Below are positions 1,776 to 24,905 of a DNA stretch of 33,349 bases, piece after piece. The first letter of the stretch is position 1. Each line of letters begins with the position of its first letter. This DNA comes from Escherichia phage P2_AC1, in sequence record NC_070903.1. The stretch is one strand, 5' to 3'. The position numbers were made by a program, and so were the translations under genes. Under the pieces are notes generated by a model. It searched no databases and was not told the origin of the DNA. It saw only the letters and a program-made list of their open reading frames with translations.

Positions 1776-2723
1776 TTATTCCATTTCATCCCGTTCTGCA
1801 TCCTCCTCATCCATCATGTCAATTAAATTTCTGGTCCGCAATCTAAGCGCACTATTGAACATATTGTTTGATGAAACCCCACAATAATTATCTAAGTGAG
1901 CGATTACTCTAGAACAATCCATTATCATTTTATTTAATGATTCAATTAACTCGCTCCTAGATGTTTCATCAATACCACGGCGAATAAATCTTCTTTTTAC
2001 ACGAATTAGTGAATGATGCATGGATAATAAATCAGAAGCTACAATTTTTAAAACAGTTTCTTTACGCCCTTCCCTGTTTATTATTTTGCTAACATATTCT
2101 TCTGGCAATAATGATGCTGGATCACGCAATAATTGGTGATTTGTTCGGCTAATATCCAGCAAACTTTCAACAATTTTGGAAAGATTTTGTATCTCAGAAG
2201 TCGAATCACCTTTTGTTTTTTTAGTGGAATCTTTATCTACAGGGTTAATATCTTGAATGTTATCTAACTCACGCTCTAAACTTGGCCACCATTGCTCGAA
2301 AGCTTTAGTTAAGCGTTCTTCAGTCAAAAATCCTGCTTGATTATTTATTGACAACATCAACTTCAAAATATCGTTCTTATCATCCGAACGAGTATACTGG
2401 AATTGTAATATTGGGCCTGTTATCTCAGATGGTTTAATTTTAAACAAGAAAGGACTAACCCGGCTCTTATCAACCTTTTTACCTAAAGCACCCGCCTCAA
2501 AATTTATCCACGGTGCATTAATATTATTTTTTGTAAGGCAAATAATCCCATAAGAAGAGTCATCAAGTTCCTTTGATATATCAGTCGCCCAGCGAGTGCC
2601 TTTATCAATATCTTCCGCTGATACGTACGGCTCAGCTACTTGAATAACATTCGGTATCCAATCCCGTAATACTTTTGCTATCTCCAGGCTGTCCTGACCT
2701 GACCAACTAATAAATATCTTCAT
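1776..2723 (-). CDS. TIR-domain protein (N-terminal TIR, about res 1-125) with C-terminal helical domain of unknown function; candidate NAD+-consuming defence effector/sensor
   Basis: 315-aa ORF, ATG 2721-2723 with AAGGT about 9 nt upstream; N-terminus MKIFISWSGQD matches the TIR beta-A motif (F-I-S-x-S-x-x-D, same spacing as FISYSEHD of Toll-like receptors); W72-x3-E76 (APWINFEAG) matches the TIR W-x-x-x-E spacing; AT-rich. Confidence 0.75.
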   Translation of the reverse strand: MKIFISWSGQDSLEIAKVLRDWIPNVIQVAEPYVSAEDIDKGTRWATDISKELDDSSYGIICLTKNNINAPWINFEAGALGKKVDKSRVSPFLFKIKPSEITGPILQFQYTRSDDKNDILKLMLSINNQAGFLTEERLTKAFEQWWPSLERELDNIQDINPVDKDSTKKTKGDSTSEIQNLSKIVESLLDISRTNHQLLRDPASLLPEEYVSKIINREGRKETVLKIVASDLLSMHHSLIRVKRRFIRRGIDETSRSELIESLNKMIMDCSRVIAHLDNYCGVSSNNMFNSALRLRTRNLIDMMDEEDAERDEME

Positions 2724-2934
2724 AATACCATACCTTGATTAAAAAAGATCCATATCTATGACGTCAATACCTGAGCACGCGGGGAAGTTATGCCTTATGG
2801 CAGAATGATTTCTTATTAAGCCCGTGTTTTTGCTACATGTAGCGATAGCTGGCAGTGAAAACACCCATTTCCACATGCAAAACAATGCATCTGATACATG
2901 CGGATTTACAATGTCAGCTAATCAAAAGTCATGT

Positions 2935-2964
2935 AAAAAAATCACCCCCTAAGGGGTGATTTTT
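2935..2964 (-). terminator. rho-independent terminator (bidirectional hairpin) ending the A-proximal cargo operon
   Basis: Perfect 8-bp stem atcacccc / ggggtgat with 4-nt loop (2941-2960), A6 on one side and T4 on the other; on the minus strand it directly follows the stop of the 185-aa gene and is followed by 6 U. Confidence 0.65.
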
Positions 2965-3520
2965 ATGCGTATACAACCTTTTCAACCTGAGTATCAGGAA
3001 GCAGCATTATAGCTTCCTCTAAATCTCTTCCTTTGACCCACTGTACTAAACTACTTGCTGTCTTTATGACCCTAACACAGAACCATACAGCAAGGACAAA
3101 TGGAAACATGTAAAGCAATAACATTAAGCTATTGAATAACAGTACATTTTCAAGTATCCGACCGGATTTAAACAGTACATCAACAACTTCTCTATCATCA
3201 CAGCGTTTGAAAACATCTATCTCACGCCGAATTTTCTGCCTTATTGCATGGTTTTCTGCCATACGCTTTTGAGCACGAAATTTGTTTGGCAACGTGAGTA
3301 AATGCAATCTATTGATAGCGTTATTCAATGAGTCATGCACAAGTGTTGCCGCTTGCATGGAAGTATCGGAACCTCCATCAATGATTTTCCTCCTAGCGAC
3401 ATCACGAAGCGCAAACAATTGGTTTCTATAATGAAGTCGGATGGACGGCAAAATGATTCGCTCGTAAATGAAGTGTGCTGCGCCTAAACCCAACAGCACA
3501 TAAAACAGCACTGTCAGCAT
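2963..3520 (-). CDS. hypothetical membrane protein (two predicted TM helices flanking a ~110-aa soluble region)
   Basis: 185-aa ORF with strong RBS (AGGAG 6 nt before ATG at 3518-3520); TM1 res 2-19, TM2 about res 129-150; starts 20 nt after the stop of the upstream 126-aa gene (operon); followed by the terminator. Confidence 0.7.
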   Translation of the reverse strand: MLTVLFYVLLGLGAAHFIYERIILPSIRLHYRNQLFALRDVARRKIIDGGSDTSMQAATLVHDSLNNAINRLHLLTLPNKFRAQKRMAENHAIRQKIRREIDVFKRCDDREVVDVLFKSGRILENVLLFNSLMLLLYMFPFVLAVWFCVRVIKTASSLVQWVKGRDLEEAIMLLPDTQVEKVVYA

Positions 3521-3540
3521 AATAACTCCTAAATAAACAA

Positions 3541-3921
3541 CTATTTATCACTTGTACCCAAGGCTTGAGTGGTCTGTCTTTGTTGATACTTTGTTTTCTC
3601 GTTACCGATTCTCTGTGCCTCGGAACTAAAACAGCGCCTCATGATTCGCGCATGTGCAGACCAAGCCAAACCCACTATTACCGAGATAGCCCAACCAACC
3701 AAGGAATGCTCCTTAAAGCCATCAACAATAGAGAAGGCTAAATTGGACAAGTCAGTTTTTGGTAACCTCCATGCAGCAATCATTAAAATAATACTGATGG
3801 TAATAGGTATCAACTGACCATTAGACATGGCTCTTATCATTACATCCCGCCACGCCTGAGCCCACGTAACCTTAACCTGATTTTTGTTGCCTTTGCCTTT
3901 GCCTTTGCCTTGCTTCCCCAT
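3541..3921 (-). CDS. hypothetical small 2-TM membrane protein with Gly/Lys-rich N-terminus
   Basis: 126-aa ORF, ATG at 3919-3921; two hydrophobic helices (about res 36-52 and 73-89); first gene after a ~330-bp non-coding gap downstream of A; the N-terminal (GK)n is encoded by a hexamer repeat, so the true start could be internal. Confidence 0.6.
   Translation of the reverse strand: MGKQGKGKGKGNKNQVKVTWAQAWRDVMIRAMSNGQLIPITISIILMIAAWRLPKTDLSNLAFSIVDGFKEHSLVGWAISVIVGLAWSAHARIMRRCFSSEAQRIGNEKTKYQQRQTTQALGTSDK
3886..3913. repeat. in-frame hexanucleotide tandem repeat (ctttgc x3 plus partial copies) encoding the GKGKGKG tract
   Basis: Direct reading of ttgcctttgcctttgcctttgccttgc at the 5' end of the 126-aa ORF. 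Confidence 0.5.
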
Positions 3922-8106: not shown

Positions 8107-8300
8107 TTCCAGCCCCTCCGGCTTTTCAGAAAGGTCAGAGCCTTTTTTAACGGACTCTGTTTTTTGGTACGGATAATGATTCCCTTGCGTCCCTTCCCGT
8201 GGGTGATGGTGAAGTCAATCGCCCTGGGGCTTTCGTTACGCAGTAACTGAGCAATACAACGCGGCTCATTCATAATCACAACCCCATCCACAAAAGCCAT
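8103..8300 (-). CDS. small early ORF between cox and B (P2 orf78 position)
   Basis: 65-codon ORF overlapping the cox 3' end and the B start; position conserved in P2 but sequence not recognised. Confidence 0.45.
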   Translation of the reverse strand: MAFVDGVVIMNEPRCIAQLLRNESPRAIDFTITHGKGRKGIIIRTKKQSPLKKALTFLKSRRGWK

Positions 8301-8563
8301 GCATCACGCTGTTCAACCGGTCGGTTATAAAACGCATCACGTACAGCGCGATTAAACTCAGGAATGAAAACCCATTTTTCACCGGCACGAGCCTTCGGTT
8401 TGCAAGGATCACGCAATTCAATAATTGGTAATTTATTTGCCTTCACCATTTCACTGACTGCTGTCTTTGGCTTCCCTAATAAATCAGCAAATTTATCCAC
8501 ATGAACCGCATCAAGCGGATACTGAATCACATAATTTTCAGCGTCCATATATGGTACCCTCAT
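8276..8563 (-). CDS. cox: Cox-like excisionase / early-operon transcriptional regulator
   Basis: First gene of the early operon, divergent from C; C-terminal KLPIIELRDP...AGEKWVFIPEFN...RDAWLLWMGL resembles P2 Cox as remembered; N-terminal part differs; true start may be the internal Met. Confidence 0.75.
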   Translation of the reverse strand: MRVPYMDAENYVIQYPLDAVHVDKFADLLGKPKTAVSEMVKANKLPIIELRDPCKPKARAGEKWVFIPEFNRAVRDAFYNRPVEQRDAWLLWMGL

Positions 8564-8684
8564 AGGATCCAGCCCTTTCTAAACCACTCAAAACCGTTTA
8601 GACGCTGGTTTATTCTCAAATCAATGGAACCTATATAGGTTCCAGTTTTGAGGGAATTTAGTCCCTATATAGGCACCATGTCAA
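8564..8684. promoter_or_regulatory. divergent Pe/Pc immunity switch region with two operator-like palindromes
   Basis: 121-bp gap between divergent cox (-) and C (+); CCTATATAGG occurs twice (8630-8639, 8664-8673), the first within an 18-bp perfect palindrome GGAACCTATATAGGTTCC. Confidence 0.6.
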
Positions 8685-8978
8685 ATGAAATTAAGCGAAA
8701 AGATTAAGGCCTTGCGTGAGGCTGAAGGGCTAAGCCAATCAAAATTCTGTGAAATCATAGAGTTACCGCTAAGCACACTTAAAAAATATGAAGGAGGAAA
8801 CTTTGAACCCGGTGGCACAGCTTTGCTAAAAATCACTATGCATCCCACATTCCAAAAATATGCTCTATGGCTTATGACAGATAAAACCGCGCCGGACGCA
8901 GGACAAATCGCACCGGCTCTCGCGCACATTGGGCCAGAGTCAACAGAGTCCAACCACTCCGCGAAAAGGATTGGCTAA
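8685..8978 (+). CDS. C: immunity repressor C (HTH, XRE-like)
   Basis: 97-aa ORF; C-terminal QIAPALAH and YALWLMTDKTAP resemble P2 C as remembered; N-terminal helix-turn-helix region differs. Confidence 0.85.
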   Translation: MKLSEKIKALREAEGLSQSKFCEIIELPLSTLKKYEGGNFEPGGTALLKITMHPTFQKYALWLMTDKTAPDAGQIAPALAHIGPESTESNHSAKRIG

Positions 8979-9017
8979 CTCTATATAAAGATTACATTTT
9001 CACCATTTGCTACCAAG

Positions 9018-10028
9018 ATGGTGAATACAGCGCCGGAGGGCTTTCTTATGGCAATTAAGAAGCTCGATGATGGTCGCTATGAAGTGGACATTAGACCTCG
9101 CGGTCGCGACGGAAAACGCATCCGCAGGAAATTCGAAAGAAAAGCTGAGGCACTAGCATTTGAGCGATACACAATCGCCAATGCCAGTCAGAAAGAATGG
9201 GGAGGCCAGCGAGCAGACCGCCGGACTTTGAGTGAGTTGCTGGACATCTGGTGGAAATATCACGGGCAAAACCACGAGCATGGAACAAAAGAGTTTAATC
9301 ATCTACTCAAAACCATCAGCGGCATAGGTGATATACCAGTGAGCAGGATGAGCAAAAGGGCTTTGATGGATTATCGTTCCATGCGACTACGTGATGGTAT
9401 CAGTGCCGCAACGATAAACCGTGACATGTACCGATTATCCGGCATGTTCACAAAATTAATTCAATTGGATGAATTTTCCGGGCAACACCCAATTCACGGA
9501 CTGCCGCCACTGGCGGAGGCCAACCCTGAAATGACGTTCCTGGAAAAAGCAGAAATCGAAAAACTGTTAAATGTTTTGGCTGGTGATGACTTACTTGTCG
9601 CGCTTTTATGTCTGAGCACTGGAGGAAGATGGACGGAAGTTGCCACGCTAAAACCAGCACAGATTACAAATTGCAGGGTTACCTTCCTGAAAACCAAAAA
9701 CGGTAAAAAGCGAACCGTGCCGATTTCTGAGGAACTGGAGAAAAAAGTTAAAGAGGAGGCCAGCGCCAAATTATTCAAAGTTAATTATGAGAAATTTTGC
9801 GGGATTTTACGCAGAGTGAAACCTGATATACCACCCAATCAGGCAACCCACATCCTGCGGCATACATTCGCAAGCCATTTCATGATGAATGGGGGCAATA
9901 TAATCGCACTGCAACAGATTCTGGGACATGCGAGCATTCAGCAGACGATGGCCTATGCGCACCTTGCGCCTGACTATCTGCAAAATGCCGTCGCTCTGAA
10001 TCCACTAAAAGGCGGAGTGACGTTATAA
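9018..10028 (+). CDS. int: tyrosine integrase (P2 Int type)
   Basis: ORF with MAIKKLDDGRYEVDIRPRGRDGKRIRRKF start (likely true ATG at 9048), C-terminal HxLRHTF...H...Y catalytic region; reads toward attP as in P2. Confidence 0.95.
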   Translation: MVNTAPEGFLMAIKKLDDGRYEVDIRPRGRDGKRIRRKFERKAEALAFERYTIANASQKEWGGQRADRRTLSELLDIWWKYHGQNHEHGTKEFNHLLKTISGIGDIPVSRMSKRALMDYRSMRLRDGISAATINRDMYRLSGMFTKLIQLDEFSGQHPIHGLPPLAEANPEMTFLEKAEIEKLLNVLAGDDLLVALLCLSTGGRWTEVATLKPAQITNCRVTFLKTKNGKKRTVPISEELEKKVKEEASAKLFKVNYEKFCGILRRVKPDIPPNQATHILRHTFASHFMMNGGNIIALQQILGHASIQQTMAYAHLAPDYLQNAVALNPLKGGVTL

Positions 10029-10043
10029 ATTTCCCCCTCTGAG

Positions 10044-10062
10044 TGTCCACATAGTGTCCACA
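10044..10062 (+). repeat. integrase arm-type binding site pair (TGTCCACATAGTGTCCACA)
   Basis: Tandem 8-mers 3 bp apart, immediately after the int stop. Confidence 0.55.
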
Positions 10063-10146
10063 CTCAAGAAATTTTGAAACCGCTCCAAACCCTTACAGCT
10101 TTCGATAAGTACCTGTTTTTACTTTTGATTGCATGTAAGTAATTGA

Positions 10147-10174
10147 TAAAAAAAACCCCCACATCATGTGGGGG
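10147..10174 (-). terminator. rho-independent terminator of the D-ogr late transcript inside attP
   Basis: Palindrome cccccacat-c-atgtggggg followed on the minus strand by a run of 9 U (A9 at 10147-10155 on plus). Confidence 0.6.
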
Positions 10175-10239
10175 AAGACAGGGATGGTGTCACAAAAAAG
10201 CACCTAACCTGATGATATAAATGGATTTATATCAAACGC

Positions 10240-10602: not shown

Positions 10603-11766
10603 TCACTCATCATCTTCTGTTTCGTACTCCACATCAGAAAGCCTGACCTCAAGCTCCAGGGACGTCGTGAAGCCGCTATTATTCAGAAAATGTGTCACCT
10701 TAGTGATTGTCCAGTCCTGCTCGTCTATGACGCGCTTAAAGCCTGACACTCTGACCGGCGTTTCCGTGTAAATATCTGCCCGACCAGTAGCCAGGCTGAT
10801 GGAGAACTCCGCAACACCCCGTTGCAGTTTATCCCACTTCGCCTGAGCGGCGCGCATGGCCTGTGCTTTCGTGGCATATACCGTGGTCAGGGCAAAAACG
10901 TTGTCAGCCTCACCGGCCATGTATTCACCTTCGCGCGCTTCCGGTACTTTTGGCTCTTTCTTCTGCGTGACCGGTTTCGCTTTCGGGTGCTCCAGTGCGC
11001 GCAGGTGTTTCTCTTTCTTTTTGCGTTTCAGTTTTACCTTCTGCTTTTGCGGCTTCGGGTCTTTGGTGTGTAACCACTTTGCCGTTACGCCTGTGTAGGC
11101 TCCACGGTCAGCAATCGCAAAATGATGACGGTCGCCGTCGCTGCGGGTGATGGTAATCTGCGGGATTTTTTTACCGCTGGCCGTCACCCCCTGCCCCGCT
11201 TTGAGAAACAGCAGTTTTCCCATTTTTACCGACACCTCACCGCCGTTGCGTTCAGCAAGACGGGTCAGGAATTTCGCATCGGACTCCTGCGACTGGTCGA
11301 TGTGCGGGATTTTAATTCCGGCCAGTGACGGAGCGACACTGGCTTCCAGCCTGTTACGGGAGGCTATCGCCTCAACAATCGCACCGAGCGTGGTGTCATG
11401 CCAGGAGCCTTCACGGCGGGAATTGAGCGTCCCGCGAAAATCTGCACTCCGGGCGCGGATGGTAACCACATCCGGCGCGCCCCGGTGTTCAACCTCATCA
11501 ACGGTAAATTTCCCTTTGCATACCAGGGCAAAACCTTTCCAGCCGATATACACCGTCAGGACAGCGCCACGAACCGGCAGCCCGACCTGCCCGTCGGCAT
11601 CGTTCAGTTCAATATCAAGCTGGTCAGCCTCAAAGCCCCGGTTATCCGTCAGGGTCATGCTCATCAGACGGTCGCTGATATTGCCGGTAATATCCCTGCT
11701 GTCGAGCATCAGCATGTAATCCGGCGTCAGCGTACTGCCTGCATCAAATGTCAGCGCATCCAGCAT
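10603..11766 (-). CDS. D: tail protein gpD
   Basis: 387-aa ORF matching P2 gpD length and position (last late gene before ogr). Confidence 0.95.
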   Translation of the reverse strand: MLDALTFDAGSTLTPDYMLMLDSRDITGNISDRLMSMTLTDNRGFEADQLDIELNDADGQVGLPVRGAVLTVYIGWKGFALVCKGKFTVDEVEHRGAPDVVTIRARSADFRGTLNSRREGSWHDTTLGAIVEAIASRNRLEASVAPSLAGIKIPHIDQSQESDAKFLTRLAERNGGEVSVKMGKLLFLKAGQGVTASGKKIPQITITRSDGDRHHFAIADRGAYTGVTAKWLHTKDPKPQKQKVKLKRKKKEKHLRALEHPKAKPVTQKKEPKVPEAREGEYMAGEADNVFALTTVYATKAQAMRAAQAKWDKLQRGVAEFSISLATGRADIYTETPVRVSGFKRVIDEQDWTITKVTHFLNNSGFTTSLELEVRLSDVEYETEDDE

Positions 11767-12245
11767 TATCCCGCCCCCGTCATACCTGTGAATCTGGTCG
11801 CCATACTGCCGGCCTTACCGATGAGCGATTCCGCCTGTTTACCGATATCGCCATAAAGCGCGGCCAGTGATTCATCAACGCGGGTGAGTGACAGCGTAAA
11901 ATCAATTTTCCGGGGTGTGCCGTCTGCAAAGAAAATACTCCCTGTTTCACTCACCCTGCTGATGACATACATGCCGTAAATCATGCCGGTGCCATCCAGC
12001 AACGGCCACGCCCGCCCCTCCTCTGCCATCAGCCTGAGCGTGGTCATCGTCAGCTTGCCGCCGGTCAGTTCGGGATAAAGCACACCGGCAAGCGTGATGT
12101 TTTCCTCACCCACACCGAGAAACTGAAAAGCGTCCCGTTTACCGATACGGGAATTTGACGGCCAGCGATAATCTGATTCACGCTGCATGGTCTGGTGTGG
12201 CAGCGTCTGGCGCATAAAAACAAACATACCTAACGCGAGCATCAT
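11766..12245 (-). CDS. U: tail protein gpU
   Basis: 159-aa ORF, position and length as P2 gpU; stop overlaps the D start. Confidence 0.95.
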   Translation of the reverse strand: MMLALGMFVFMRQTLPHQTMQRESDYRWPSNSRIGKRDAFQFLGVGEENITLAGVLYPELTGGKLTMTTLRLMAEEGRAWPLLDGTGMIYGMYVISRVSETGSIFFADGTPRKIDFTLSLTRVDESLAALYGDIGKQAESLIGKAGSMATRFTGMTGAG

Positions 12246-17027: not shown

Positions 17028-17234
17028 CTGTCCTGATTTGTACACACTCATTTTCCGACTGACAATTTACATAACCCAAAAGTTATCAAATATGACAGTC
17101 TGCTTTGAGCAAGAAGCGGACATTTGCCTGTCAGGGTATATGCCGCTCTGCGGTTATTATCCAGAATCAATAATTCATCTGAGTTGGATTACATATAAAA
17201 CATAGTTATCCCATGAATAACCATTAGCAGATCA

Positions 17235-17828
17235 TCAATTATGTAAATCTTTTGTTTCAGGTTTTTTGAGGTGTTGTGACAACAAATGGCTATAGCGTTT
17301 AAGCAAAATATTAGAAAGATTAAACTCATTCATGAAGTGTTCTTCTAATAAGTAACCATCAATATCAACTTTAATATCATTATTACTTTTCATCTTCTGT
17401 AACGTAGATTTTACACGCTCCAGCAGGATGCTTTGCTCATGGTAATAGTCCATAAGAAGAGTAACATCCTCTTTATCAAGTTTACTTAATTCACTGAAGT
17501 AGGCTTTAAACACTTTATCAGTCTGGTTTAATGCAACCTGTAAGCGAGGCCCTCCTAATGATTTGACATTAATGGCAAAAGGCTCGCCAACAAAATGCTC
17601 CGAATTTTCGTCAAAGCCAATATGTCTCGTTTTATCAAGAAAAGTGAGAGCGCGATGGTTATTAGCGATTTCATATGCAAACATTGTTCTGATACTGTCC
17701 CTCTCAGCCTCCATGCTTATATCATCACGGTGATTTGTATAAAATATATTTCCAACAAAGAGAACCATAGCAAGAATCACTGAACTTGCCTCCCAGTTAA
17801 TATTTTTTAATCGTCGCTTAGTAAACAT
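17235..17828 (-). CDS. hypothetical membrane-anchored cargo protein in the Z/fun variable locus
   Basis: 197-aa ORF, AAGGTG RBS 5 nt before ATG; N-terminal signal-anchor helix (about res 14-36), remainder soluble; AT-rich island 16906-18049 between G and FI. Confidence 0.6.
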   Translation of the reverse strand: MFTKRRLKNINWEASSVILAMVLFVGNIFYTNHRDDISMEAERDSIRTMFAYEIANNHRALTFLDKTRHIGFDENSEHFVGEPFAINVKSLGGPRLQVALNQTDKVFKAYFSELSKLDKEDVTLLMDYYHEQSILLERVKSTLQKMKSNNDIKVDIDGYLLEEHFMNEFNLSNILLKRYSHLLSQHLKKPETKDLHN

Positions 17829-18049
17829 ACCGCACCTTAATTATCAAAAATATTCCTTCAGTGTTATCTGGTTAGCCTAAACCAAGTCATTAAAGTCCGC
17901 AGGATATCATATACATAAAATGTATTGATTAGAATTTGCACTAATAAAATAATGCTTTACTAAAATCTACTCCAGACACAGAGCGGTCTGTCAGATTAGG
18001 CTTTACTCTGTGCTATAGATATGTAAGCTCACACCAGAGATCATACAAC

Positions 18050-18580: not shown

Positions 18581-20626
18581 TTACACCTGTGCGACGTTAT
18601 ACCATGTGCCATTGATGTATTTTTGTATTGGCCTGAATACTGCGGGGTCATCACCATCGACTTCACCGACAATACCAAGCCCGGTAATTACGTGCCCTGC
18701 TTTCTCATACATCACCCCTTTCTGCATGGTCTGGACAACACGTGTGCCAAGTCTGATATCTCTCACATAGCGGGAATCAAAGTTACCGTAATCCGAGGGA
18801 TTAACACGCCCCGTAATATTTATGGTCTTATTACTTTGAATGCTTCCGGAAACAAAGCGCATAACATGGACGTTATTAGCATAAACATCCAGATTACCAT
18901 CGCCATTTTGTTTAAATCCGGTGTCGTTATCACCAAGAACAATAGAGTTCCCACCCAACGCGTTATTCGTGCCAAGTGCCAGCCCGCCATCAATCCTGGC
19001 ACCATTACCAACAGACACAACTCCTGTTCTTAAGTTGATGCCGAATGGCCTTAATGGCCCAATATCTCCATTTTCACCCTCATTTTCTCGTGTAGGAATG
19101 ATATACAGGTTTTCTTCAGAACGGCGAAAAATAGCACCAAAAGATGAATTAAATATCCTCAGCGCATTGACTGTAGATATTTTTACTTCACTGCTGAAAA
19201 GGGCTTTAACAAGAACATACAGAGCATCCCATTTAAGATTCATCAGGTCTTTTGTTGTGGTGCTCTGGCGACTTCTCCATTTGAAATATTCATTGCCGTT
19301 GTCACCTGTTTCAAACCACATATATGAATCAGTATCGCTGTCGGCATCATTTTTAAATCCAATCTTTGCCCAGTCAGTATTTCGAATCCAGGCAAGGATT
19401 GAGTCGTTTTCAAAAGTAAGCCCGCCGGACAAGGTATCGCCATTTTTTTGCACGGCGTTCCCGGCTCGGTTTACCGTTTCCTGTAAACCGAGATATTCGA
19501 TAACGGCGGCAACGGTCGATTTAGCCAGAATATCCCGCCCGACTTTTGTCAGGGTCGCCAGGCTGGCAACATCATTCCCCGTAAAATACGGAAACCTGTC
19601 TGCCGCAGTAGCAAGCCCCGCCAGCGCCGTCAAAGTGGCATCTTTCGGTTGCTTACCCGCAAGCGCATTAGTCATGGTGGTAGCAAAATTCGGGTCATTG
19701 CCCAGCGCCGCCGCCAGCTCGTTCAGCGTATTCAGTGCGTCAGGCGACGAGTCTACAAGGGCGGCAATCGCGGCCATAACGAAAGCCGTGTTTGCGATCT
19801 GAGTATTATTCGTTCCCTGTCGCGCAGTTGGCGTCGTTGGCGTTCCGGTCAGTGCAGGGCTGTTTAATGGCGCTTTCTTGTTCGTTTCATCCATTACCGT
19901 CTTAACGGCTTTTGGTGTTGCGGCGAGCGTTTCAGACGTGCTGTTGGTGGCACTACTGAGCTGGACAAGGCCTTTTCGCGCTGTGGTGGCGTCCTGTGCA
20001 GTGTATTTCCCGTTAGCAAGGTCATATGCTGCTTTTACCGCTTTTGGTGTTGCGGCGAGTGTTTCAGACGTGCTGTTGGTCGCACTGCTTAACTGAGTAA
20101 AACCTTTGGCGGTCAGCGAGGCGTCCGGGTGACGTCGTGACTGTTCATGTTCTGCAATTTTGTCATCAACGTAATCCTGCGTTGCCATCACCGTTGTGGT
20201 GTCAATGGTCAGCGCCACTGAGGCCACACTGCTGACGATGATGACCATGCGGCAGGTCTGCGAACGCCCTGAGCCTTCGGCAAGAGCTGGCTTATAACTT
20301 TCAGCCATGTTCGCCACGGCAATTAACGTTCCAGCATCATCGTACAGGCCAAGCTCACGCATCCAGAAACCGCCCACCTCCGGCGGAATAACCAGCTCTG
20401 CGATAATATAATTACTGTTTCGTTTGTCCTGGCTGATTTTGTTCAGCGCATGTCGCCAGACTTCGTGGATAAGCCCGGTCTGTCCGGCATCCGGGACAGG
20501 CAATTTACCACCGCCATCCCCGACGGCCATCGTGGTAATGTTGACCTTCCGCCCTCCCGGCGCGGTTGCCGCTGCCAGCTTTGCTGCACCAGCAGTGGTG
20601 ATAACGGTTCTGAATTTTGTGCTCAT
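18581..20626 (-). CDS. H: tail fibre protein gpH (receptor-binding)
   Basis: 681-aa ORF; conserved N-terminus MSTKFRTVITTAGAAKLAAATAPGG..., internal duplicated QLSSATNSTSETLAATPKAVK motif, Gly/Asn-rich C-terminal region. Confidence 0.9.
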   Translation of the reverse strand: MSTKFRTVITTAGAAKLAAATAPGGRKVNITTMAVGDGGGKLPVPDAGQTGLIHEVWRHALNKISQDKRNSNYIIAELVIPPEVGGFWMRELGLYDDAGTLIAVANMAESYKPALAEGSGRSQTCRMVIIVSSVASVALTIDTTTVMATQDYVDDKIAEHEQSRRHPDASLTAKGFTQLSSATNSTSETLAATPKAVKAAYDLANGKYTAQDATTARKGLVQLSSATNSTSETLAATPKAVKTVMDETNKKAPLNSPALTGTPTTPTARQGTNNTQIANTAFVMAAIAALVDSSPDALNTLNELAAALGNDPNFATTMTNALAGKQPKDATLTALAGLATAADRFPYFTGNDVASLATLTKVGRDILAKSTVAAVIEYLGLQETVNRAGNAVQKNGDTLSGGLTFENDSILAWIRNTDWAKIGFKNDADSDTDSYMWFETGDNGNEYFKWRSRQSTTTKDLMNLKWDALYVLVKALFSSEVKISTVNALRIFNSSFGAIFRRSEENLYIIPTRENEGENGDIGPLRPFGINLRTGVVSVGNGARIDGGLALGTNNALGGNSIVLGDNDTGFKQNGDGNLDVYANNVHVMRFVSGSIQSNKTINITGRVNPSDYGNFDSRYVRDIRLGTRVVQTMQKGVMYEKAGHVITGLGIVGEVDGDDPAVFRPIQKYINGTWYNVAQV
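19905..20092. repeat. direct repeat inside H (two ~53-bp near-identical copies about 131 bp apart)
   Basis: Copies at 19905-19957 and 20036-20092 differ at a few positions; they encode the duplicated LSSATNSTSETLAATPKAVK peptide. Confidence 0.7.
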
Positions 20627-22072: not shown

Positions 22073-22420
22073 TCAACTCACAGGGATGGTTAACGAAAGT
22101 GGCTGGCCGGTGTCGTTGTGCAGGCCGGTTAACGTGACCGTCATTCGCCCGTCAAAACTGCGCGCCGTGGTGACGGATGACAGGGTGACGCGGGGTTCCC
22201 ATTTCAGCACTGCCATGTAACAGGCGACTTTAATCTGCAACTCAAGCGCCGGGGTCTGCGGCTGGTCAATCATTGACGCCAGCAACGAGCCGTAATCACG
22301 ACGCATCACCCGTGAGCCGACCGGTGTGCGCAGGATATCGCCGATACTCTGGCTGATATGCTCAAGGTCAGTGACAGTCAGGCCATCACTGCGATTCATT
22401 CCGAGATAACGCGCTGTCAT
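22073..22420 (-). CDS. W: baseplate wedge protein gpW
   Basis: 115-aa ORF, P2 gpW length and position. Confidence 0.9.
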   Translation of the reverse strand: MTARYLGMNRSDGLTVTDLEHISQSIGDILRTPVGSRVMRRDYGSLLASMIDQPQTPALELQIKVACYMAVLKWEPRVTLSSVTTARSFDGRMTVTLTGLHNDTGQPLSLTIPVS

Positions 22421-23052
22421 AGAGGTCCCCCTGTTGTGCCGCCACTGTCGCCGGGGTGTTTATGGGTATGCAGTACCTTACCGTTTGATGAGAGTTCACC
22501 GCCGGTGTGTTCAATGTTGCCGCGCATCGTCCCGCCCTTCTGCACTTCCAGCGTGCCGGTAATCAGCCTGTTGGTGCAGACCACCTCCGGTGTGTCCAGG
22601 GTGACGCGGGTTGATGCTTTCACCATGACCACCGGCACCGTGGCAGTAACAGAATCAGAAGCCGTCACGCTGGCCGTTTTAATTCCGCTTACCGTAAGTG
22701 CACTGGTTTCGGGTTCATACTCAATCACCGCCCCGTCAGGGAAACGGATATGCAGGGCATCCGCCGACGCAGACGGCGCGGGGTTATCGCCGGAATAAAT
22801 CCCCGGCAGAACGAATGCCGTGTCGAGTTCACCGCCCACGGACAGAATCAGCACCTGTTCTCCCACGGAAGGTGCCCACCATGTGCGCGAACGACCGGCG
22901 CGATGGGTCAGCCACTGAAGCCAGTCGGTGCACATGCCGCCGGTCTGCACGCGGCAGCGACCGGCGTTAAGGTCGGTTTCGACGATAATGCCGGTGCGAA
23001 TCATGTTGCGCAGTGCGCGCGCGAGTTCCTGAATATTTGCGAGAGTGTTCAT
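22417..23052 (-). CDS. V: baseplate hub/spike protein gpV
   Basis: MNTLANIQELARALRNM... from the internal Met (211 aa; the ORF track extends to 23070). Confidence 0.9.
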   Translation of the reverse strand: MNTLANIQELARALRNMIRTGIIVETDLNAGRCRVQTGGMCTDWLQWLTHRAGRSRTWWAPSVGEQVLILSVGGELDTAFVLPGIYSGDNPAPSASADALHIRFPDGAVIEYEPETSALTVSGIKTASVTASDSVTATVPVVMVKASTRVTLDTPEVVCTNRLITGTLEVQKGGTMRGNIEHTGGELSSNGKVLHTHKHPGDSGGTTGGPL

Positions 23053-23135
23053 GCATGTGAGATTGCACAATATATAAAAGTTATGCTATCTGGATTCATT
23101 TGTAGAACTACCAGACAACATTCAAGGAGAGCGTA

Positions 23136-23921
23136 ATGGTCAGCTATAATGTGACTAATGTGTGGGGGCTAATCGTTTTTTTCCTTTGTAGCTTTGCAGT
23201 ATTAGCATTTTTTAGCTTTGGTAAAAGTAACCTTATGAGGCTTATTGCACATTATTTCAATTTTGGATATTCAGACAAAAAATTAAAAAGACTTGACCGC
23301 GAGTGGCGCGACATTCAACTATTTAAAATAATTAACGGAATCAATGTATCAGGCATTGAAAATGTGAGAATGATACAGCAGGGACTGATTGATGGAAAAC
23401 TAAAAACATCGTATTTTTTCCTTACTCGCATCTGGGGTGACATAACAAAACCACCACACATAATTAAAACAATAATTGTAATTCTGACCAGTATTTTTTA
23501 CATTCTCCTCGCATGTTACATACACAACAAACAATCCGTTATAGTAAGGGATGCCATAGGCATACCATATAAAAACATGATGTACTATGTTTATAGTGAC
23601 AAAGTTCTTTTATCCTTCAAAAATAAAGCAGTTGAATTTAATAAAACTTATAGCCTTGCCGATTGCAAGAAACTGCAAAACGTATTTATAAAAGACACAC
23701 TTCCTGAGATCGCCTGCAATAAGCTCTTACAGCTAAACGAGGAGGACTCCGAATGGTTAAGCCAGGAGATTAAAGATAATAACAGTCACAAAAAAGCATT
23801 ATTAATACTATCCCTCGTCTATTTCACTTCAGGTCTGGTTATATTCCTGTCATATACAAAATTCTTTTACGCCAATAAGAAGGTTTTAGAATACAAAGCA
23901 TCAAATAAAAATCACTCATAA
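23136..23921 (+). CDS. hypothetical polytopic membrane cargo protein in the S-V variable locus
   Basis: 261-aa ORF on the strand opposite the late operons; AAGGAGA RBS 5 nt before ATG; at least 3 hydrophobic helices (res ~10-28, ~112-132, ~222-242); AT-rich island 23071-23940. Confidence 0.6.
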   Translation: MVSYNVTNVWGLIVFFLCSFAVLAFFSFGKSNLMRLIAHYFNFGYSDKKLKRLDREWRDIQLFKIINGINVSGIENVRMIQQGLIDGKLKTSYFFLTRIWGDITKPPHIIKTIIVILTSIFYILLACYIHNKQSVIVRDAIGIPYKNMMYYVYSDKVLLSFKNKAVEFNKTYSLADCKKLQNVFIKDTLPEIACNKLLQLNEEDSEWLSQEIKDNNSHKKALLILSLVYFTSGLVIFLSYTKFFYANKKVLEYKASNKNHS

Positions 23922-23926
23922 ACCTC

Positions 23927-23963
23927 TAAACATTGAGCGACCAGCATGGCCGCTCAATGTTTA
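23927..23963. terminator. bidirectional terminator hairpin between the convergent cargo gene and S
   Basis: About 12-bp stem taaacattgagcg / cgctcaatgttt around an 11-nt loop, between the stop of the 261-aa gene (23921) and the stop of S (23993). Confidence 0.5.
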
Positions 23964-23992
23964 ATTGCGCATCAGCCTCTGCCTGGATAAAA

Positions 23993-24445
23993 CTAACGCT
24001 CAAGGTGAGCCAGGATAATCTCTTCAATCATCTGCACATCCTCACCGGTAAAGCCGAGCAGGGGACGCGCCGGATAATCAATTTTCTTACCGTCTTTCCG
24101 GTTTTCTTCCGACAGACCAAACTGATGCACACTGGCGATTTTCGGCGACTTCCCGCCGTAAAATTCCATTGATGCCTGCTCCGGGCTGGCACGGATATGC
24201 AAAAAACGACTGGTAATAAGTTTCGCAAACATTTTTCGCTTAACGCGACCGGTCTTTTTTCTGGCGCTCTGCTGCTGGCGTGGTGCGTAGGGTGTGCCGT
24301 CCGGAGCTTTCTGTGCCATCACCCGACGCTGCTGACTCTGCCGCAGACGTTTCGCCAGTTCTGCACTCAGTCGCCGACGCCCAGACGGTGACAGCGATTC
24401 AATCAGTCCGGTCAGCCGGTCTTCAAAACGCTTAAACTCATTCAT
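23993..24445 (-). CDS. S: tail completion protein gpS
   Basis: 150-aa ORF, P2 gpS length and position. Confidence 0.9.
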   Translation of the reverse strand: MNEFKRFEDRLTGLIESLSPSGRRRLSAELAKRLRQSQQRRVMAQKAPDGTPYAPRQQQSARKKTGRVKRKMFAKLITSRFLHIRASPEQASMEFYGGKSPKIASVHQFGLSEENRKDGKKIDYPARPLLGFTGEDVQMIEEIILAHLER

Positions 24446-24905
24446 CCCACTTGCTCACCAGTTCGCCATTGATATAAAGCTCCATCGGGCGGGTGACCGG
24501 CTCCGGCGGCGTGGGTTCCGGGATATTCTTCACATGCAGCGCGCCGTCCACCTCACTGACCAGCGTGCGCTCGGTCAGCATCAGGCTGATGCTGATATCA
24601 AAGCTGCTGTCATTGTTGATGTCTGCATAAAACGTGAAACCTTTTTTCTGGCCTTCGTCGGTGGTTATGATGTCGGGCTGATTTTCCCGCAGCCACGCCA
24701 GCACCGGCACGATGAGCAGGTCAAAATCACCGGTAAAGTCGGTCACAATGACATTGAGCGTGTAACGCTTTTCGAATGACAGCGACGTCGCCAGCGTGGA
24801 GGCAATACTCCCGTTATCAACGAATATCCGCAGCATATCGGGGTTAGTTTTCAGCACCGTGACGGCATCAGTCAGCGCCCTGCGCAGGCTGTCGGGTTTG
24901 AGCAT
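24438..24905 (-). CDS. R: tail completion protein gpR
   Basis: 155-aa ORF, P2 gpR length and position. Confidence 0.9.
   Translation of the reverse strand: MLKPDSLRRALTDAVTVLKTNPDMLRIFVDNGSIASTLATSLSFEKRYTLNVIVTDFTGDFDLLIVPVLAWLRENQPDIITTDEGQKKGFTFYADINNDSSFDISISLMLTERTLVSEVDGALHVKNIPEPTPPEPVTRPMELYINGELVSKWDE

What the first reader, a model, noticed from the sequence alone, without database searches (positions are those of the whole stretch)
23071..23992. Opposite-strand polytopic membrane protein inserted between V and S (orf30 position)
A 261-aa protein with at least three TM helices is encoded on the strand opposite the late operons, in an AT-rich island bounded by the V start and a bidirectional hairpin terminator shared with S. 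A gene at this position with its own RBS and orientation is likely expressed independently of late transcription, possibly in the lysogen, as lysogenic-conversion or exclusion genes typically are.
Basis: inference. Interest (0 to 1): 0.55.

Follow-up and report, generated by a model that had tools for sequence, protein, structure and literature searches.

The report
Phage P2 orf30 membrane-protein cargo gene
This is the long-annotated but still uncharacterised orf30 gene of phage P2, an optional AT-rich cargo gene for a three-helix inner-membrane protein in a known variable slot between tail genes S and V; it is real and under selection, but its suspected role in excluding other phages is untested.

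Summary
Window 23136-23921 (+) encodes a 261-aa protein with three hydrophobic helices. It lies on the strand opposite the late genes, in a 940-bp island of 35% GC between V (start 23052) and S (stop 23993). A strong hairpin sits at 23927-23963.

The feature is not new. It is orf30 of phage P2 (98.5% identical, annotated "nonessential"). The S/V gap is a published site of horizontally acquired genes in P2-like phages.

New here:
- Orf30 belongs to a small family found only in Enterobacterales, with no Pfam, NCBIfam, PADLOC or PDB relative.
- In P2-like phages of six genera it sits next to V on the opposite strand, at only 21-39% identity.
- About 29% of E. coli genomes with a P2-type V-S region carry it; most of the rest are empty there.
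- It is under purifying selection (dN/dS 0.48).
- Predicted topology is N-terminus out and C-terminus in, with a conserved cytoplasmic loop and a variable periplasmic domain holding a conserved cysteine pair.
- Relatives carry ApeA-like, PDC-S59 and HigBA genes in the same gap.

The most likely role is a prophage-expressed envelope or exclusion function (about 0.4), which remains unproven. No convincing sigma-70 promoter exists in the P2-type allele, and published orf30-carrying lysogens were not reported to protect. Interest is low to moderate.

The parts
23136..23921 (+). orf30 coding sequence (261 aa plus stop), the homologue of phage P2 Orf30
   Evidence: ORF list. 98.5% identity to AF063097.1 orf30. 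PHROG 2407, E 3.6e-148, full length. Intact 786-bp ORF in all 8 alleles compared, dN/dS 0.48.
23124..23129 (+). Shine-Dalgarno sequence AAGGAG, 6 nt before the ATG
   Evidence: Read directly from the sequence.
23160..23216 (+). TM1 (residues 9-27). The N-terminal tail carries no K or R, so it is predicted to face the periplasm.
   Evidence: Hydropathy 2.41. Family-wide mean K/R in the 12-residue flanks is 0.04 before TM1 and 1.75 after it.
23310..23411 (+). Most conserved segment of the family (residues 59-92, motif D-x-Q-L-F-K/R-x-x-N-G-I-N-V ... D-A-x-x-I ... G-x-L) inside the predicted cytoplasmic loop 1 (residues 28-108)
   Evidence: Lowest column entropy and highest BLOSUM score of all regions. 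G68 and G87 are invariant. dN/dS of loop 1 is 0.38.
23460..23516 (+). TM2 (residues 109-127)
   Evidence: Hydropathy 2.46. Model helix 109-134.
23517..23795 (+). Predicted periplasmic loop 2 (residues 128-220): a beta-meander followed by two short helices that carry the conserved Cys177 (23664-23666) and Cys194 (23715-23717), then a stalk helix
23796..23852 (+). TM3 (residues 221-239), followed by a lysine-rich C-terminal tail predicted to be cytoplasmic
   Evidence: Hydropathy 2.25. The C-tail has 5 positive and 1 negative residues.
23053..23135 (-). The 83-bp V-orf30 intergenic stretch, occupied by the Ogr-dependent late promoter P_V. Transcription starts at the V ATG (23052) and the activator-binding site is at 23094-23121. 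Any orf30 promoter in this stretch must overlap it.
   Evidence: Feature table of AF063097.1 mapped onto the window. No sigma-70 consensus on the + strand; best candidate 7 of 12. One mismatch in 83 bp against allele L004, whose coding region is diverged (dS 0.22).
23927..23963 (.). Strong hairpin between the convergent 3' ends of orf30 and S; putative terminator of the O operon and possibly of orf30
   Evidence: Inverted repeat, 17-nt arms, 94% complementary. -22.4 and -29.6 kcal/mol, z -5.0 and -4.3. Annotated as a putative terminator in P2. Nearly invariant among 8 alleles.
22417..23052 (-). Gene V (baseplate spike), the left boundary of the island
   Evidence: Pfam Phage_base_V, Phage_spike, Apex. 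Homology to the empty-site phage L-413C ends exactly at the V ATG.
23993..24445 (-). Gene S (tail completion), the right boundary of the island
   Evidence: Pfam Phage_tail_S, E 3.7e-44. Homology to L-413C resumes at 23991.

Best explanation
The feature is phage P2's orf30. It is a nonessential cargo ('moron') cassette of low GC content that occupies the S/V intergenic slot of P2-like phages. The cassette is exchanged between phage backbones by recombination in its conserved edges.

It encodes an inner-membrane protein with three membrane-spanning helices. The predicted layout is: a short uncharged N-terminus in the periplasm; a conserved helical loop of about 80 residues in the cytoplasm; a variable periplasmic domain of about 90 residues, probably held by a Cys177-Cys194 disulfide; and a positively charged C-terminal helix in the cytoplasm.

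My best guess at function is that it is made from the prophage independently of Ogr-driven late transcription. It would act at the cell envelope as a host-protective or exclusion protein, with the variable periplasmic domain meeting an incoming phage or other envelope-attacking agent and the conserved cytoplasmic loop providing the common output.

Shown here: identity with P2 orf30, accessory status, membrane character, selection, and conservation of locus and orientation across genera.

Inferred: topology, the disulfide, expression in the lysogen, and the exclusion function itself. Identity is essentially certain; the stated confidence refers to the functional part.
For: Identity:
- 98.5% nucleotide identity to AF063097.1 over 22400-24500, with orf30, V, S, the P_V activator site and the terminator in the same order.

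Accessory status and mobility:
- It is present in 460 of 1578 E. coli genomes that have this V-S region. Sampled rows without it mostly show an empty 1227-bp junction. 464 of 5426 complete genomes carry it overall.
- Window versus P2: orf30 dS is 0.006 while V dS is 0.094. L023 versus L024: orf30 dS is 0.019 while S dS is 0.18. The cassette's history is therefore decoupled from the backbone.

Real, selected protein:
- All 8 alleles are intact at 786 bp. dN/dS is 0.48 overall and 0.26-0.38 in the loops.
- Homologues of 250-270 aa exist at 17-39% identity.

Locus conservation:
- The family gene lies directly beside V on the opposite strand in P2-like phages of Escherichia, Enterobacter, Serratia, Yersinia, Pectobacterium and Cronobacter.

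Context typical of conversion and defence genes:
- Same layout as fun(Z).
- The same gap holds ApeA-like and PDC-S59 genes, HigBA plus ORF6N, and other cargo in relatives.
- GC is 0.33-0.35 in every member, whatever the host.

Own promoter in relatives:
- TTATCA-17-TAT(C/G/T)AT is invariant in three Serratia copies whose proteins are about 42% identical (compared for two of the three).

Topology:
- K/R distribution and the conserved Cys pair.
Against: - No experimental phenotype is attached to orf30 in any paper I could find.
- No hit to PADLOC, Pfam or NCBIfam, and PHROG 2407 is 'unknown function'. No fold match in the PDB or BFVD.
- The P2-type allele has no consensus-like sigma-70 promoter, and its 83-bp upstream region is filled by P_V. 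Expression in the lysogen is unproven, and an AT-rich gene of this kind may be silenced.
- Rousset et al. tested E. coli C lysogens of four P2-like phages against eight phages and reported protection only for AC1. The protection was reproduced by AC1's cloned TIR system. DC1 and SIAC10, which carry orf30 alleles, were not reported as protective (PMC9122126).
- The most conserved part is cytoplasmic, not periplasmic. That fits a sensor or effector less obviously than a simple entry block.
- Chromosomal copies outside prophages exist in Serratia and Enterobacter, so the function need not concern phages.
Confidence: 0.4

Rival explanations
1. Abortive-infection effector. Orf30 would be a single-gene membrane toxin or pore kept inactive until an infecting phage triggers it through the conserved cytoplasmic loop. 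It would then depolarise the membrane and kill the cell before progeny are released.
For: - The conserved part is cytoplasmic, where phage products appear.
- Membrane proteins are common effectors in defence systems found at P2 and P4 hotspots (PMC9122126).
- The same gap carries the abortive-type gene ApeA and a HigBA toxin-antitoxin pair in relatives.
- The family is uniformly AT-rich, as is common for defence cargo.
Against: - No similarity to any PADLOC model.
- No partner, sensor or antitoxin gene in the E. coli cassette, which holds a single ORF.
- orf30-carrying lysogens were not reported as protective against eight phages.
- Only three helices and no charged or amphipathic pore-lining pattern stood out.
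Confidence: 0.15
2. Lysogenic conversion unrelated to phages. Orf30 would alter host envelope physiology, for example tolerance to bacteriocins, tailocins, type VI attack, envelope stress or colonisation factors, and so benefit the lysogen.
For: - Chromosomal, non-prophage copies are kept at a fixed site (between an ASCH-domain gene and ecotin) in Serratia, and next to envelope or redox genes in Enterobacter.
- It has a periplasmic domain with a conserved Cys pair.
- No anti-phage phenotype has been reported.
Against: - Most genomic contexts recovered in public data are the V-S gap of P2-like phages.
- The chromosomal Serratia copies keep an 'ACAAACAACAA' stretch like the sequence upstream of P_V in the phage copy, which suggests they derive from a phage cassette.
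- No enzyme fold or known domain was found.
Confidence: 0.2
3. Lytic-cycle accessory. Orf30 would be made during P2 growth and tune lysis timing, membrane events of DNA entry or exit, or prevent progeny from wasting themselves on infected cells.
For: - It lies within about 1 kb of the lysis cassette (Y, K, lysA, lysB, lysC) and next to the spike gene.
- P2 already has nonessential lysis-timing membrane proteins such as LysA.
Against: - It is on the strand opposite every late operon. The Ogr site is placed to drive V, not orf30: a start 55 bp from the site on the + strand would fall inside the ORF (my arithmetic).
- It is absent from 71% of related E. coli prophages and from viable phages such as L-413C.
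- At 261 aa it is far larger than three-helix holins.
Confidence: 0.1
4. Silent passenger. The cassette would persist by hitch-hiking and recombination in a permissive gap and have no function in the P2-type context, for example because H-NS silences it.
For: - No consensus promoter in the P2-type allele.
- 35% GC.
- Constraint is relaxed compared with neighbouring genes: dN/dS 0.48 against 0.06-0.15.
- The gene is frequently absent.
Against: - All eight sequenced alleles examined are intact, with no frameshift or stop, despite up to 13% amino-acid-changing divergence. The loops have dN/dS of 0.26-0.38.
- The family keeps its length, topology and motifs down to about 20% identity across six genera. 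That requires long-term selection on the protein.
Confidence: 0.1

Closest known systems
Bacteriophage P2 Orf30 (AAD03281.1; GenBank AF063097.1 9439-10224), PHROG 2407
   Same: It is the same gene. Protein identity is 98.5% and the neighbours (V, P_V activator site, terminator, S), strand and length (261 aa) are the same. It matches PHROG 2407 over its full length at E 3.6e-148.
   Different: Only four amino-acid differences. The surrounding phage is not P2 itself: the old/tin region, the immunity and integrase region and the Z/fun slot differ.
P2 lysogenic-conversion genes fun(Z), old and tin, and the three published variable regions of P2-like phages (TO region, Z region, orf30 position)
   Same: These genes are nonessential, lie on the strand opposite the flanking operons and have an atypical composition. 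Like fun(Z), orf30 sits between a late-operon terminator and the next late promoter's activator site. The orf30 position is named in the literature as a place where foreign genes are found (PMC3091744; PMC2771037; PMC6823313).
   Different: fun(Z), old and tin have demonstrated exclusion phenotypes against T5, lambda and T-even phages. orf30 has none. There is no sequence similarity between them, and Orf30 is a membrane protein.
Prophage or phage inner-membrane superinfection-exclusion proteins (P22 SieA, T4 Imm, HK97 gp15; recalled from my own knowledge of the field)
   Same: They are small polytopic or bitopic inner-membrane proteins encoded as single accessory genes, and they act at the envelope.
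   Different: No sequence, profile or fold similarity was detected to anything annotated in this way. Orf30 is larger and its best-conserved part is cytoplasmic. A block of DNA entry has not been tested.
Defence cargo of P2/P4 hotspots (Rousset et al. 2022, PMC9122126; Moura de Sousa et al. 2026, PMC13586616)
   Same: A variable locus in P2-like phages, flanked by core genes. In relatives it holds recognised defence genes: ApeA-like, PDC-S59 and HigBA. [quoted passage not shown]
   Different: Those studies centre on the gpA-gpQ (old/tin) hotspot and on Z/fun. Orf30 is not recognised by PADLOC, and term searches of those two papers found no mention of orf30, gpV or gpS.

Membership tests
P2 Orf30 family (PHROG 2407) | Full-length sequence similarity to P2 Orf30 | tested here: met
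   98.5% protein identity to AAD03281.1. PHROG 2407 at E 3.6e-148, covering residues 1-261 of 261.
P2 Orf30 family (PHROG 2407) | Position between S and V, on the strand opposite the late operons | tested here: met
P2-type lysogenic-conversion or moron cargo (like fun(Z), old, tin) | Nonessential and variably present among close relatives | tested here: met
   Annotated 'nonessential'. Present in 460 of 1578 E. coli genomes with the locus. L-413C has S and V adjacent.
P2-type lysogenic-conversion or moron cargo (like fun(Z), old, tin) | Atypical base composition and placement between transcription units with its own signals | tested here: met
   GC 0.35 against 0.51 for the window. The cassette has its own Shine-Dalgarno sequence and a 3' hairpin. 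Same layout as fun(Z).
P2-type lysogenic-conversion or moron cargo (like fun(Z), old, tin) | Expressed from the prophage | tested here: inconclusive
   No consensus promoter in the P2-type allele. Conserved consensus-like promoters occur upstream of the Serratia, Yersinia and Pectobacterium members. No transcript data were available.
P2-type lysogenic-conversion or moron cargo (like fun(Z), old, tin) | Confers a phenotype on the lysogen, such as exclusion of another phage | not testable with these tools
   Only indirect evidence. Lysogens of orf30-carrying DC1 and SIAC10 were not reported as protective against eight phages (PMC9122126).
Known anti-phage defence systems (PADLOC-DB v2.0.0) | Match to a defence-protein HMM | tested here: not met
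   No families for Orf30 at E up to 1. None for the homologues P0024, P0025 and P0046.
Inner-membrane superinfection-exclusion proteins (SieA, Imm, gp15 type) | Integral inner-membrane protein | tested here: met
   Prediction only: three hydrophobic helices, the model and positive-inside statistics.
Inner-membrane superinfection-exclusion proteins (SieA, Imm, gp15 type) | Homology to a described exclusion protein | tested here: not met
Inner-membrane superinfection-exclusion proteins (SieA, Imm, gp15 type) | Blocks genome entry of a superinfecting phage | not testable with these tools
   Requires adsorption and DNA-entry assays.
Holins and lysis-timing membrane proteins | Small (about 70-150 aa) membrane protein inside the late lysis cassette and co-transcribed with it | tested here: not met
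   It is 261 aa, on the opposite strand to Y, K, lysA, lysB and lysC, and separated from them by R, S and a terminator.

The most novel reading that the evidence does not exclude
Orf30 would be the founding member of an undescribed single-protein envelope immunity family that is native to the V-S gap of P2-like phages throughout the Enterobacterales. A fast-evolving periplasmic, disulfide-stabilised domain would recognise an incoming phage, or a P2-type tailocin component, as it crosses the periplasm. A conserved cytoplasmic loop (D-x-Q-L-F-K-x-x-N-G-I-N-V ...) would deliver a common response. The result would be exclusion aimed mainly at other P2-like phages, which the published eight-phage panel hardly tested.
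Probability: 0.25. Interest if true: 0.55.

Novelty: already known. Interest (0 to 1): 0.3.

Why it matters
P2 is one of the best-studied temperate phages, yet orf30 is one of its few sizeable genes with no function assigned. It sits in about 8.5% of complete E. coli genomes (464 of 5426). Relatives hold the same place in P2-like phages of at least six enterobacterial genera.

If it proves to be an exclusion or defence protein, it would add a third, membrane-based hotspot to the P2 defence repertoire. It would also give a compact model, one gene and three helices, for how a prophage guards the inner membrane.

If it proves silent or unrelated to phages, the finding remains an ordinary accessory gene at a known variable site.

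Tried and rejected
- Family assignment. Pfam, PADLOC and NCBIfam gave nothing, and PHROG gave only an 'unknown function' family.
- Profile searches. A profile search of PDB sequences found nothing. A profile of the conserved cytoplasmic loop searched against 5.8 billion proteins returned only fragments of the same family, so the domain does not occur in other architectures.
- Insertion signature. There are no flanking direct repeats or transposon-like ends. The island replaces the whole 66-bp intergenic region of the empty site.
- RNA elements. No Rfam family anywhere in the window.
- Co-evolution with the neighbouring spike gene. orf30 dN against V dN gives Spearman 0.28, p 0.15, on non-independent pairs, so there is no support.
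- Literature. I found no paper giving orf30 a function or a transcript. One possibly relevant H-NS preprint could not be opened.
- The first attempt to find loci with the 24-sequence alignment failed because no stretch was conserved enough.
- Holin or lysis role: rejected on size and strand.
- Structural or backbone role: rejected on distribution.
Full report
**What is there**

The window is a P2-like phage genome read in the reverse of the standard P2 orientation. It aligns with AF063097.1 from window 33349 back to P2 coordinate 1, with four non-homologous stretches.

At 23136-23921 on the + strand there is a 261-codon ORF. It starts at ATG, 6 nt after an AAGGAG Shine-Dalgarno sequence. It lies between gene V (spike; 22417-23052, - strand) and gene S (tail completion; 23993-24445, - strand); both are identified by Pfam.

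The 940-bp stretch between them has 34.9% GC, against 50.7% for the window. In that composition, 261 stop-free codons have a chance probability of about 3e-9.

A 17-bp-arm hairpin sits at 23927-23963, between the convergent ends of orf30 and S. It is far more stable than shuffled controls on both strands, at -22.4 and -29.6 kcal/mol with z-scores of -5.0 and -4.3.

The only adjustment concerns the left boundary.

**What it is**

The region 22400-24500 is 98.5% identical to phage P2. The ORF is P2 orf30, annotated "nonessential".

The P2 record also places the late promoter P_V in the 83 bp between V and orf30. The transcription start coincides with the first base of the V ATG (window 23052). 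The activator (Ogr) binding site maps to window 23094-23121, which ends 3 nt before the orf30 Shine-Dalgarno sequence. The hairpin is annotated as the putative terminator of the O operon.

The literature already lists the orf30 position as one of three places where P2-like phages carry foreign genes:
- PMC3091744.
- PMC2771037 notes that W-phi and L-413C lack the insertion and that phiCTX has a different ORF there.
- PMC6823313 describes a different 741-bp ORF there in phage R18C.

None of these papers assigns a function to orf30, and further searches found none. The feature itself is therefore already known.

**Accessory status and mobility**

Among 5426 complete E. coli genomes, 1578 contain this V-S region. 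Of those, 460 (29%) carry orf30 in it. Sampled genomes without it mostly show an empty 1227-bp junction, and a few hold unrelated ORFs.

In the phage collection, 18-19 of 76 matching records carry it.

Against the empty-site phage L-413C, homology stops exactly at the V ATG and resumes 2 nt before the S stop. The cassette therefore replaces the entire 66-bp intergenic region, P_V included. There are no flanking direct repeats.

The two edges of the cassette are almost invariant among alleles:
- the 83 bp next to V (1 mismatch in the one pair compared);
- the 70 bp around the hairpin (98% mean column identity).

The coding region, by contrast, differs by up to 13% at amino-acid-changing sites.

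Synonymous distances are decoupled from the flanks. Window versus P2 gives orf30 dS 0.006 and V dS 0.094. L023 versus L024 gives orf30 dS 0.019 and S dS 0.18. This is as expected if the cassette is swapped between backbones by homologous recombination.

**A real, selected protein**

All eight alleles compared are intact at 786 bp. dN/dS is 0.48 overall, against 0.06-0.15 for W, V, S and R. By region it is 0.26-0.38 in the two large loops and the C-tail, and about 1.2 and 1.9 in TM1 and TM3; those two segments are short, so the values are noisy.

**The family**

A word-indexed search of 5.8 billion proteins found only E. coli alleles (79-100% identity) and one Enterobacter protein at 39%.

An exhaustive HMMER scan of 1.84 billion cluster representatives found 35 hits. 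About 20 of them are full-length proteins of 250-270 aa at 17-33% identity. Those with organism names come from Yersinia, Pectobacterium, Cronobacter, Sodalis, Serratia, Enterobacter and related Enterobacterales, and all are annotated as hypothetical.

The alignment keeps the three hydrophobic segments. It also keeps a motif, D-x-Q-L-F-K/R-x-x-N-G-I-N-V ... D-A-x-x-I ... G-x-L (residues 59-90), and two cysteines (Cys194 invariant, Cys177 in 18 of 21).

Pfam, NCBIfam and PADLOC have no model for the family, and PHROG 2407 is "unknown function". A profile of the conserved loop alone retrieves only fragments of the same family.

**Conserved position**

I mapped V, W, J, S and R onto every fetched locus. 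The family gene lies directly beside V, on the opposite strand, inside the V-S gap, in P2-like phages or prophages of six genera:
- Escherichia (L001, L004-6, L023-27)
- Enterobacter (L011)
- Serratia (L008)
- Yersinia (L014-17)
- Pectobacterium (L018-19)
- Cronobacter (L020)

In these phages V is 64-84% identical to the window's V, while the Orf30 relative is only 21-39% identical to the window's protein.

In two metagenomic viral contigs (L021, L022) the gene sits to the right of R instead. There the V-S gap holds a PDC-S59 candidate defence protein or an ApeA-like protein.

Other co-resident cargo includes:
- HigB/HigA plus an ORF6N protein (Pectobacterium);
- a DUF7480 lipoprotein (Cronobacter);
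- a second membrane-protein family of 264-273 aa (Serratia, Enterobacter).

Copies outside prophages exist in Serratia, between an ASCH-domain gene and ecotin, and in Enterobacter. The Serratia chromosomal copies retain a stretch resembling the sequence upstream of P_V in the phage copy, which suggests they came from a phage cassette.

Every member has 33-35% GC, whatever its surroundings.

**Structure and topology (predicted)**

An AlphaFold2 model built on 12 sequences has a mean pLDDT of 82. Its elements are:
- helices 7-40 (TM1), 48-67, 74-85 and 91-94;
- helix 109-134 (TM2);
- four beta-strands between 140 and 173;
- helices 174-180 and 189-198, which carry the two cysteines;
- one long helix, 202-260, that includes TM3.

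Across the family, the tail before TM1 has essentially no lysine or arginine (0.04 per 12 residues, against 1.75 after TM1). Loop 1 is net positive (about 13 positive to 8 negative). Loop 2 is neutral and nearly always has exactly two cysteines. The C-tail is positive.

This fits an N-terminus outside, loop 1 in the cytoplasm, loop 2 in the periplasm with a disulfide, and the C-terminus inside. No dedicated topology predictor was available, so this remains an inference.

The best-conserved region is the cytoplasmic loop. The membrane helices and the periplasmic domain vary most.

Neither the whole model nor a separate model of the periplasmic domain has a meaningful structural neighbour.

**Expression**

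In the P2-type allele, the consensus scan finds no sigma-70 promoter on the + strand upstream of orf30. A relaxed scan gives at best 7 of 12 matches, and that candidate overlaps the P_V core. Only 17 bp separate the ACA half of the partial dyad inside the activator site from the ATG. Any promoter must therefore overlap P_V or lie inside V.

Other family members do have consensus-like promoters between the P_V upstream element and their start codons:
- TTATCA-17-TATCAT in the Serratia phage copy. The -35 hexamer and the T-A-T...A-T of the -10 hexamer are invariant in two chromosomal Serratia copies, although the proteins compared (phage copy versus one chromosomal copy) are only 42% identical.
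- TTGTTA-17-AATAAT in Yersinia.
- TG-n-TAGAAT in Pectobacterium.

Independent transcription is thus well supported for the family. It is unproven for this allele.

**Function**

For a host-protective or exclusion role:
- optional presence;
- opposite-strand placement identical to fun(Z);
- low GC;
- recognised defence genes in the same gap in relatives;
- membrane location;
- rapid divergence, with exchange of alleles between backbones.

Against it:
- no homology to any known defence or exclusion protein;
- no attributed phenotype after decades of work on P2;
- Rousset et al. lysogenised E. coli C with four P2-like phages and tested eight phages. They reported protection only for AC1, explained by its TIR system (PMC9122126). 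Two of the other three phages, DC1 (OU784750) and SIAC10 (OU784549), carry orf30 alleles. That panel contained only one P2 relative (186), so exclusion directed at P2-like phages or tailocins is not excluded.

I put about 0.4 on a prophage-expressed envelope or exclusion function. The rest is spread over an abortive membrane effector, a phage-unrelated envelope function, a lytic-cycle accessory role and a silent passenger.

**Verdict**

The feature is already known (P2 orf30 at a published variable locus), and its function is still unknown.

The family-level picture assembled here makes it a reasonable but unsurprising experimental target:
- the same slot in six genera;
- a conserved cytoplasmic motif;
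- a periplasmic cysteine pair;
- purifying selection;
- cassette exchange between backbones;
- defence genes as neighbours.

Interest: 0.3.

Noticed in passing
window 1776-3921 (- strand; ORFs 1776-2723, 2963-3520, 3541-3921): The old/tin slot of this phage carries a three-gene TIR system. PADLOC matches are TIR-TM (E 2.7e-118), 1TM-TIR (E 2.7e-75) and 2TM-TIR (E 6.9e-58). This is the type described for P2-like phage AC1, which protects against lambda, LF82_P8 and P2 itself (PMC9122126). A further 305-aa ORF at 105-1022 has no family hit.
   Followed up: partly
window 17121-17976 (ORF 17235-17828, - strand): The Z/fun slot is not homologous to P2. It holds a 197-aa ORF with no Pfam or PADLOC match.
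   Followed up: partly
window 8275-10212 and 18788-19201: The integrase, repressor and cox region and part of the tail-fibre H/G region are not alignable, or only weakly alignable, with P2. The phage is therefore probably heteroimmune to P2 and may differ in host range.
   Followed up: no
window 23052 (V start) and 23094-23121: According to the P2 GenBank record, the P_V transcript starts at the first base of the V ATG, which means a leaderless V mRNA. Inside the annotated activator site, the partial dyad in this window reads TGT-N11-ACA (23101-23117), not the TGT-N12-ACA that I recalled as the consensus.
   Followed up: partly
L008 9835-9913 and 10990-11072 (Serratia liquefaciens P2-like prophage): The V 5' end plus the intergenic hairpin region occurs twice and brackets the orf30-like cassette. 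A GC-rich remnant of V lies between the copies (10820-11003). A second AT-rich cargo ORF (264 aa, 11085-11879, co-oriented with the late genes) lies next to S. This looks like two cargo modules stacked by recombination between phages.
   Followed up: partly
L008 11085-11879 (-) and L011 8915-9736 (-): A second uncharacterised family of membrane proteins (264 and 273 aa; 27% identity, E 1e-27) accompanies the Orf30-like gene in the V-S gap of Serratia and Enterobacter P2-like phages. It has no Pfam or PADLOC match.
   Followed up: partly
L021 2431-3756 (+) and L022 1891-3672 (+): In two metagenomic P2-like contigs the V-S gap holds a PDC-S59 candidate defence protein (E 1.7e-196) or an ApeA-like protein (E 2.1e-13). 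The Orf30-like gene sits to the right of R instead.
   Followed up: partly
L018 4507-6258 and L019 8796-10436 (Pectobacterium P2-like prophages): The V-S gap also carries an ORF6N-domain protein (weak PDC-S05 match) and a HigB/HigA toxin-antitoxin pair next to the Orf30-like gene.
   Followed up: partly
L009 and L010 10001-10759, L007 10001-10768 (Serratia chromosomes); L012 and L013 7968-8759 (Enterobacter chromosomes): Lone, AT-rich (33-35% GC) Orf30-family genes lie outside prophages. In Serratia they sit between an ASCH-domain gene and ecotin; in L007 a P2-like prophage is integrated right beside this site. In Enterobacter they sit beside an ECF sigma factor and a DsbD/DsbA/DsbC-like cluster. 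No tRNA gene is nearby.
   Followed up: partly
L028 964-2007 (+) and L030 931-1671 (-) (E. coli chromosomes): Alternative occupants of the same gap in E. coli are a 347-aa ORF and a 246-aa ORF. The 246-aa ORF is the size of the 741-bp ORF described in phage R18C. Neither has a significant family match.
   Followed up: partly
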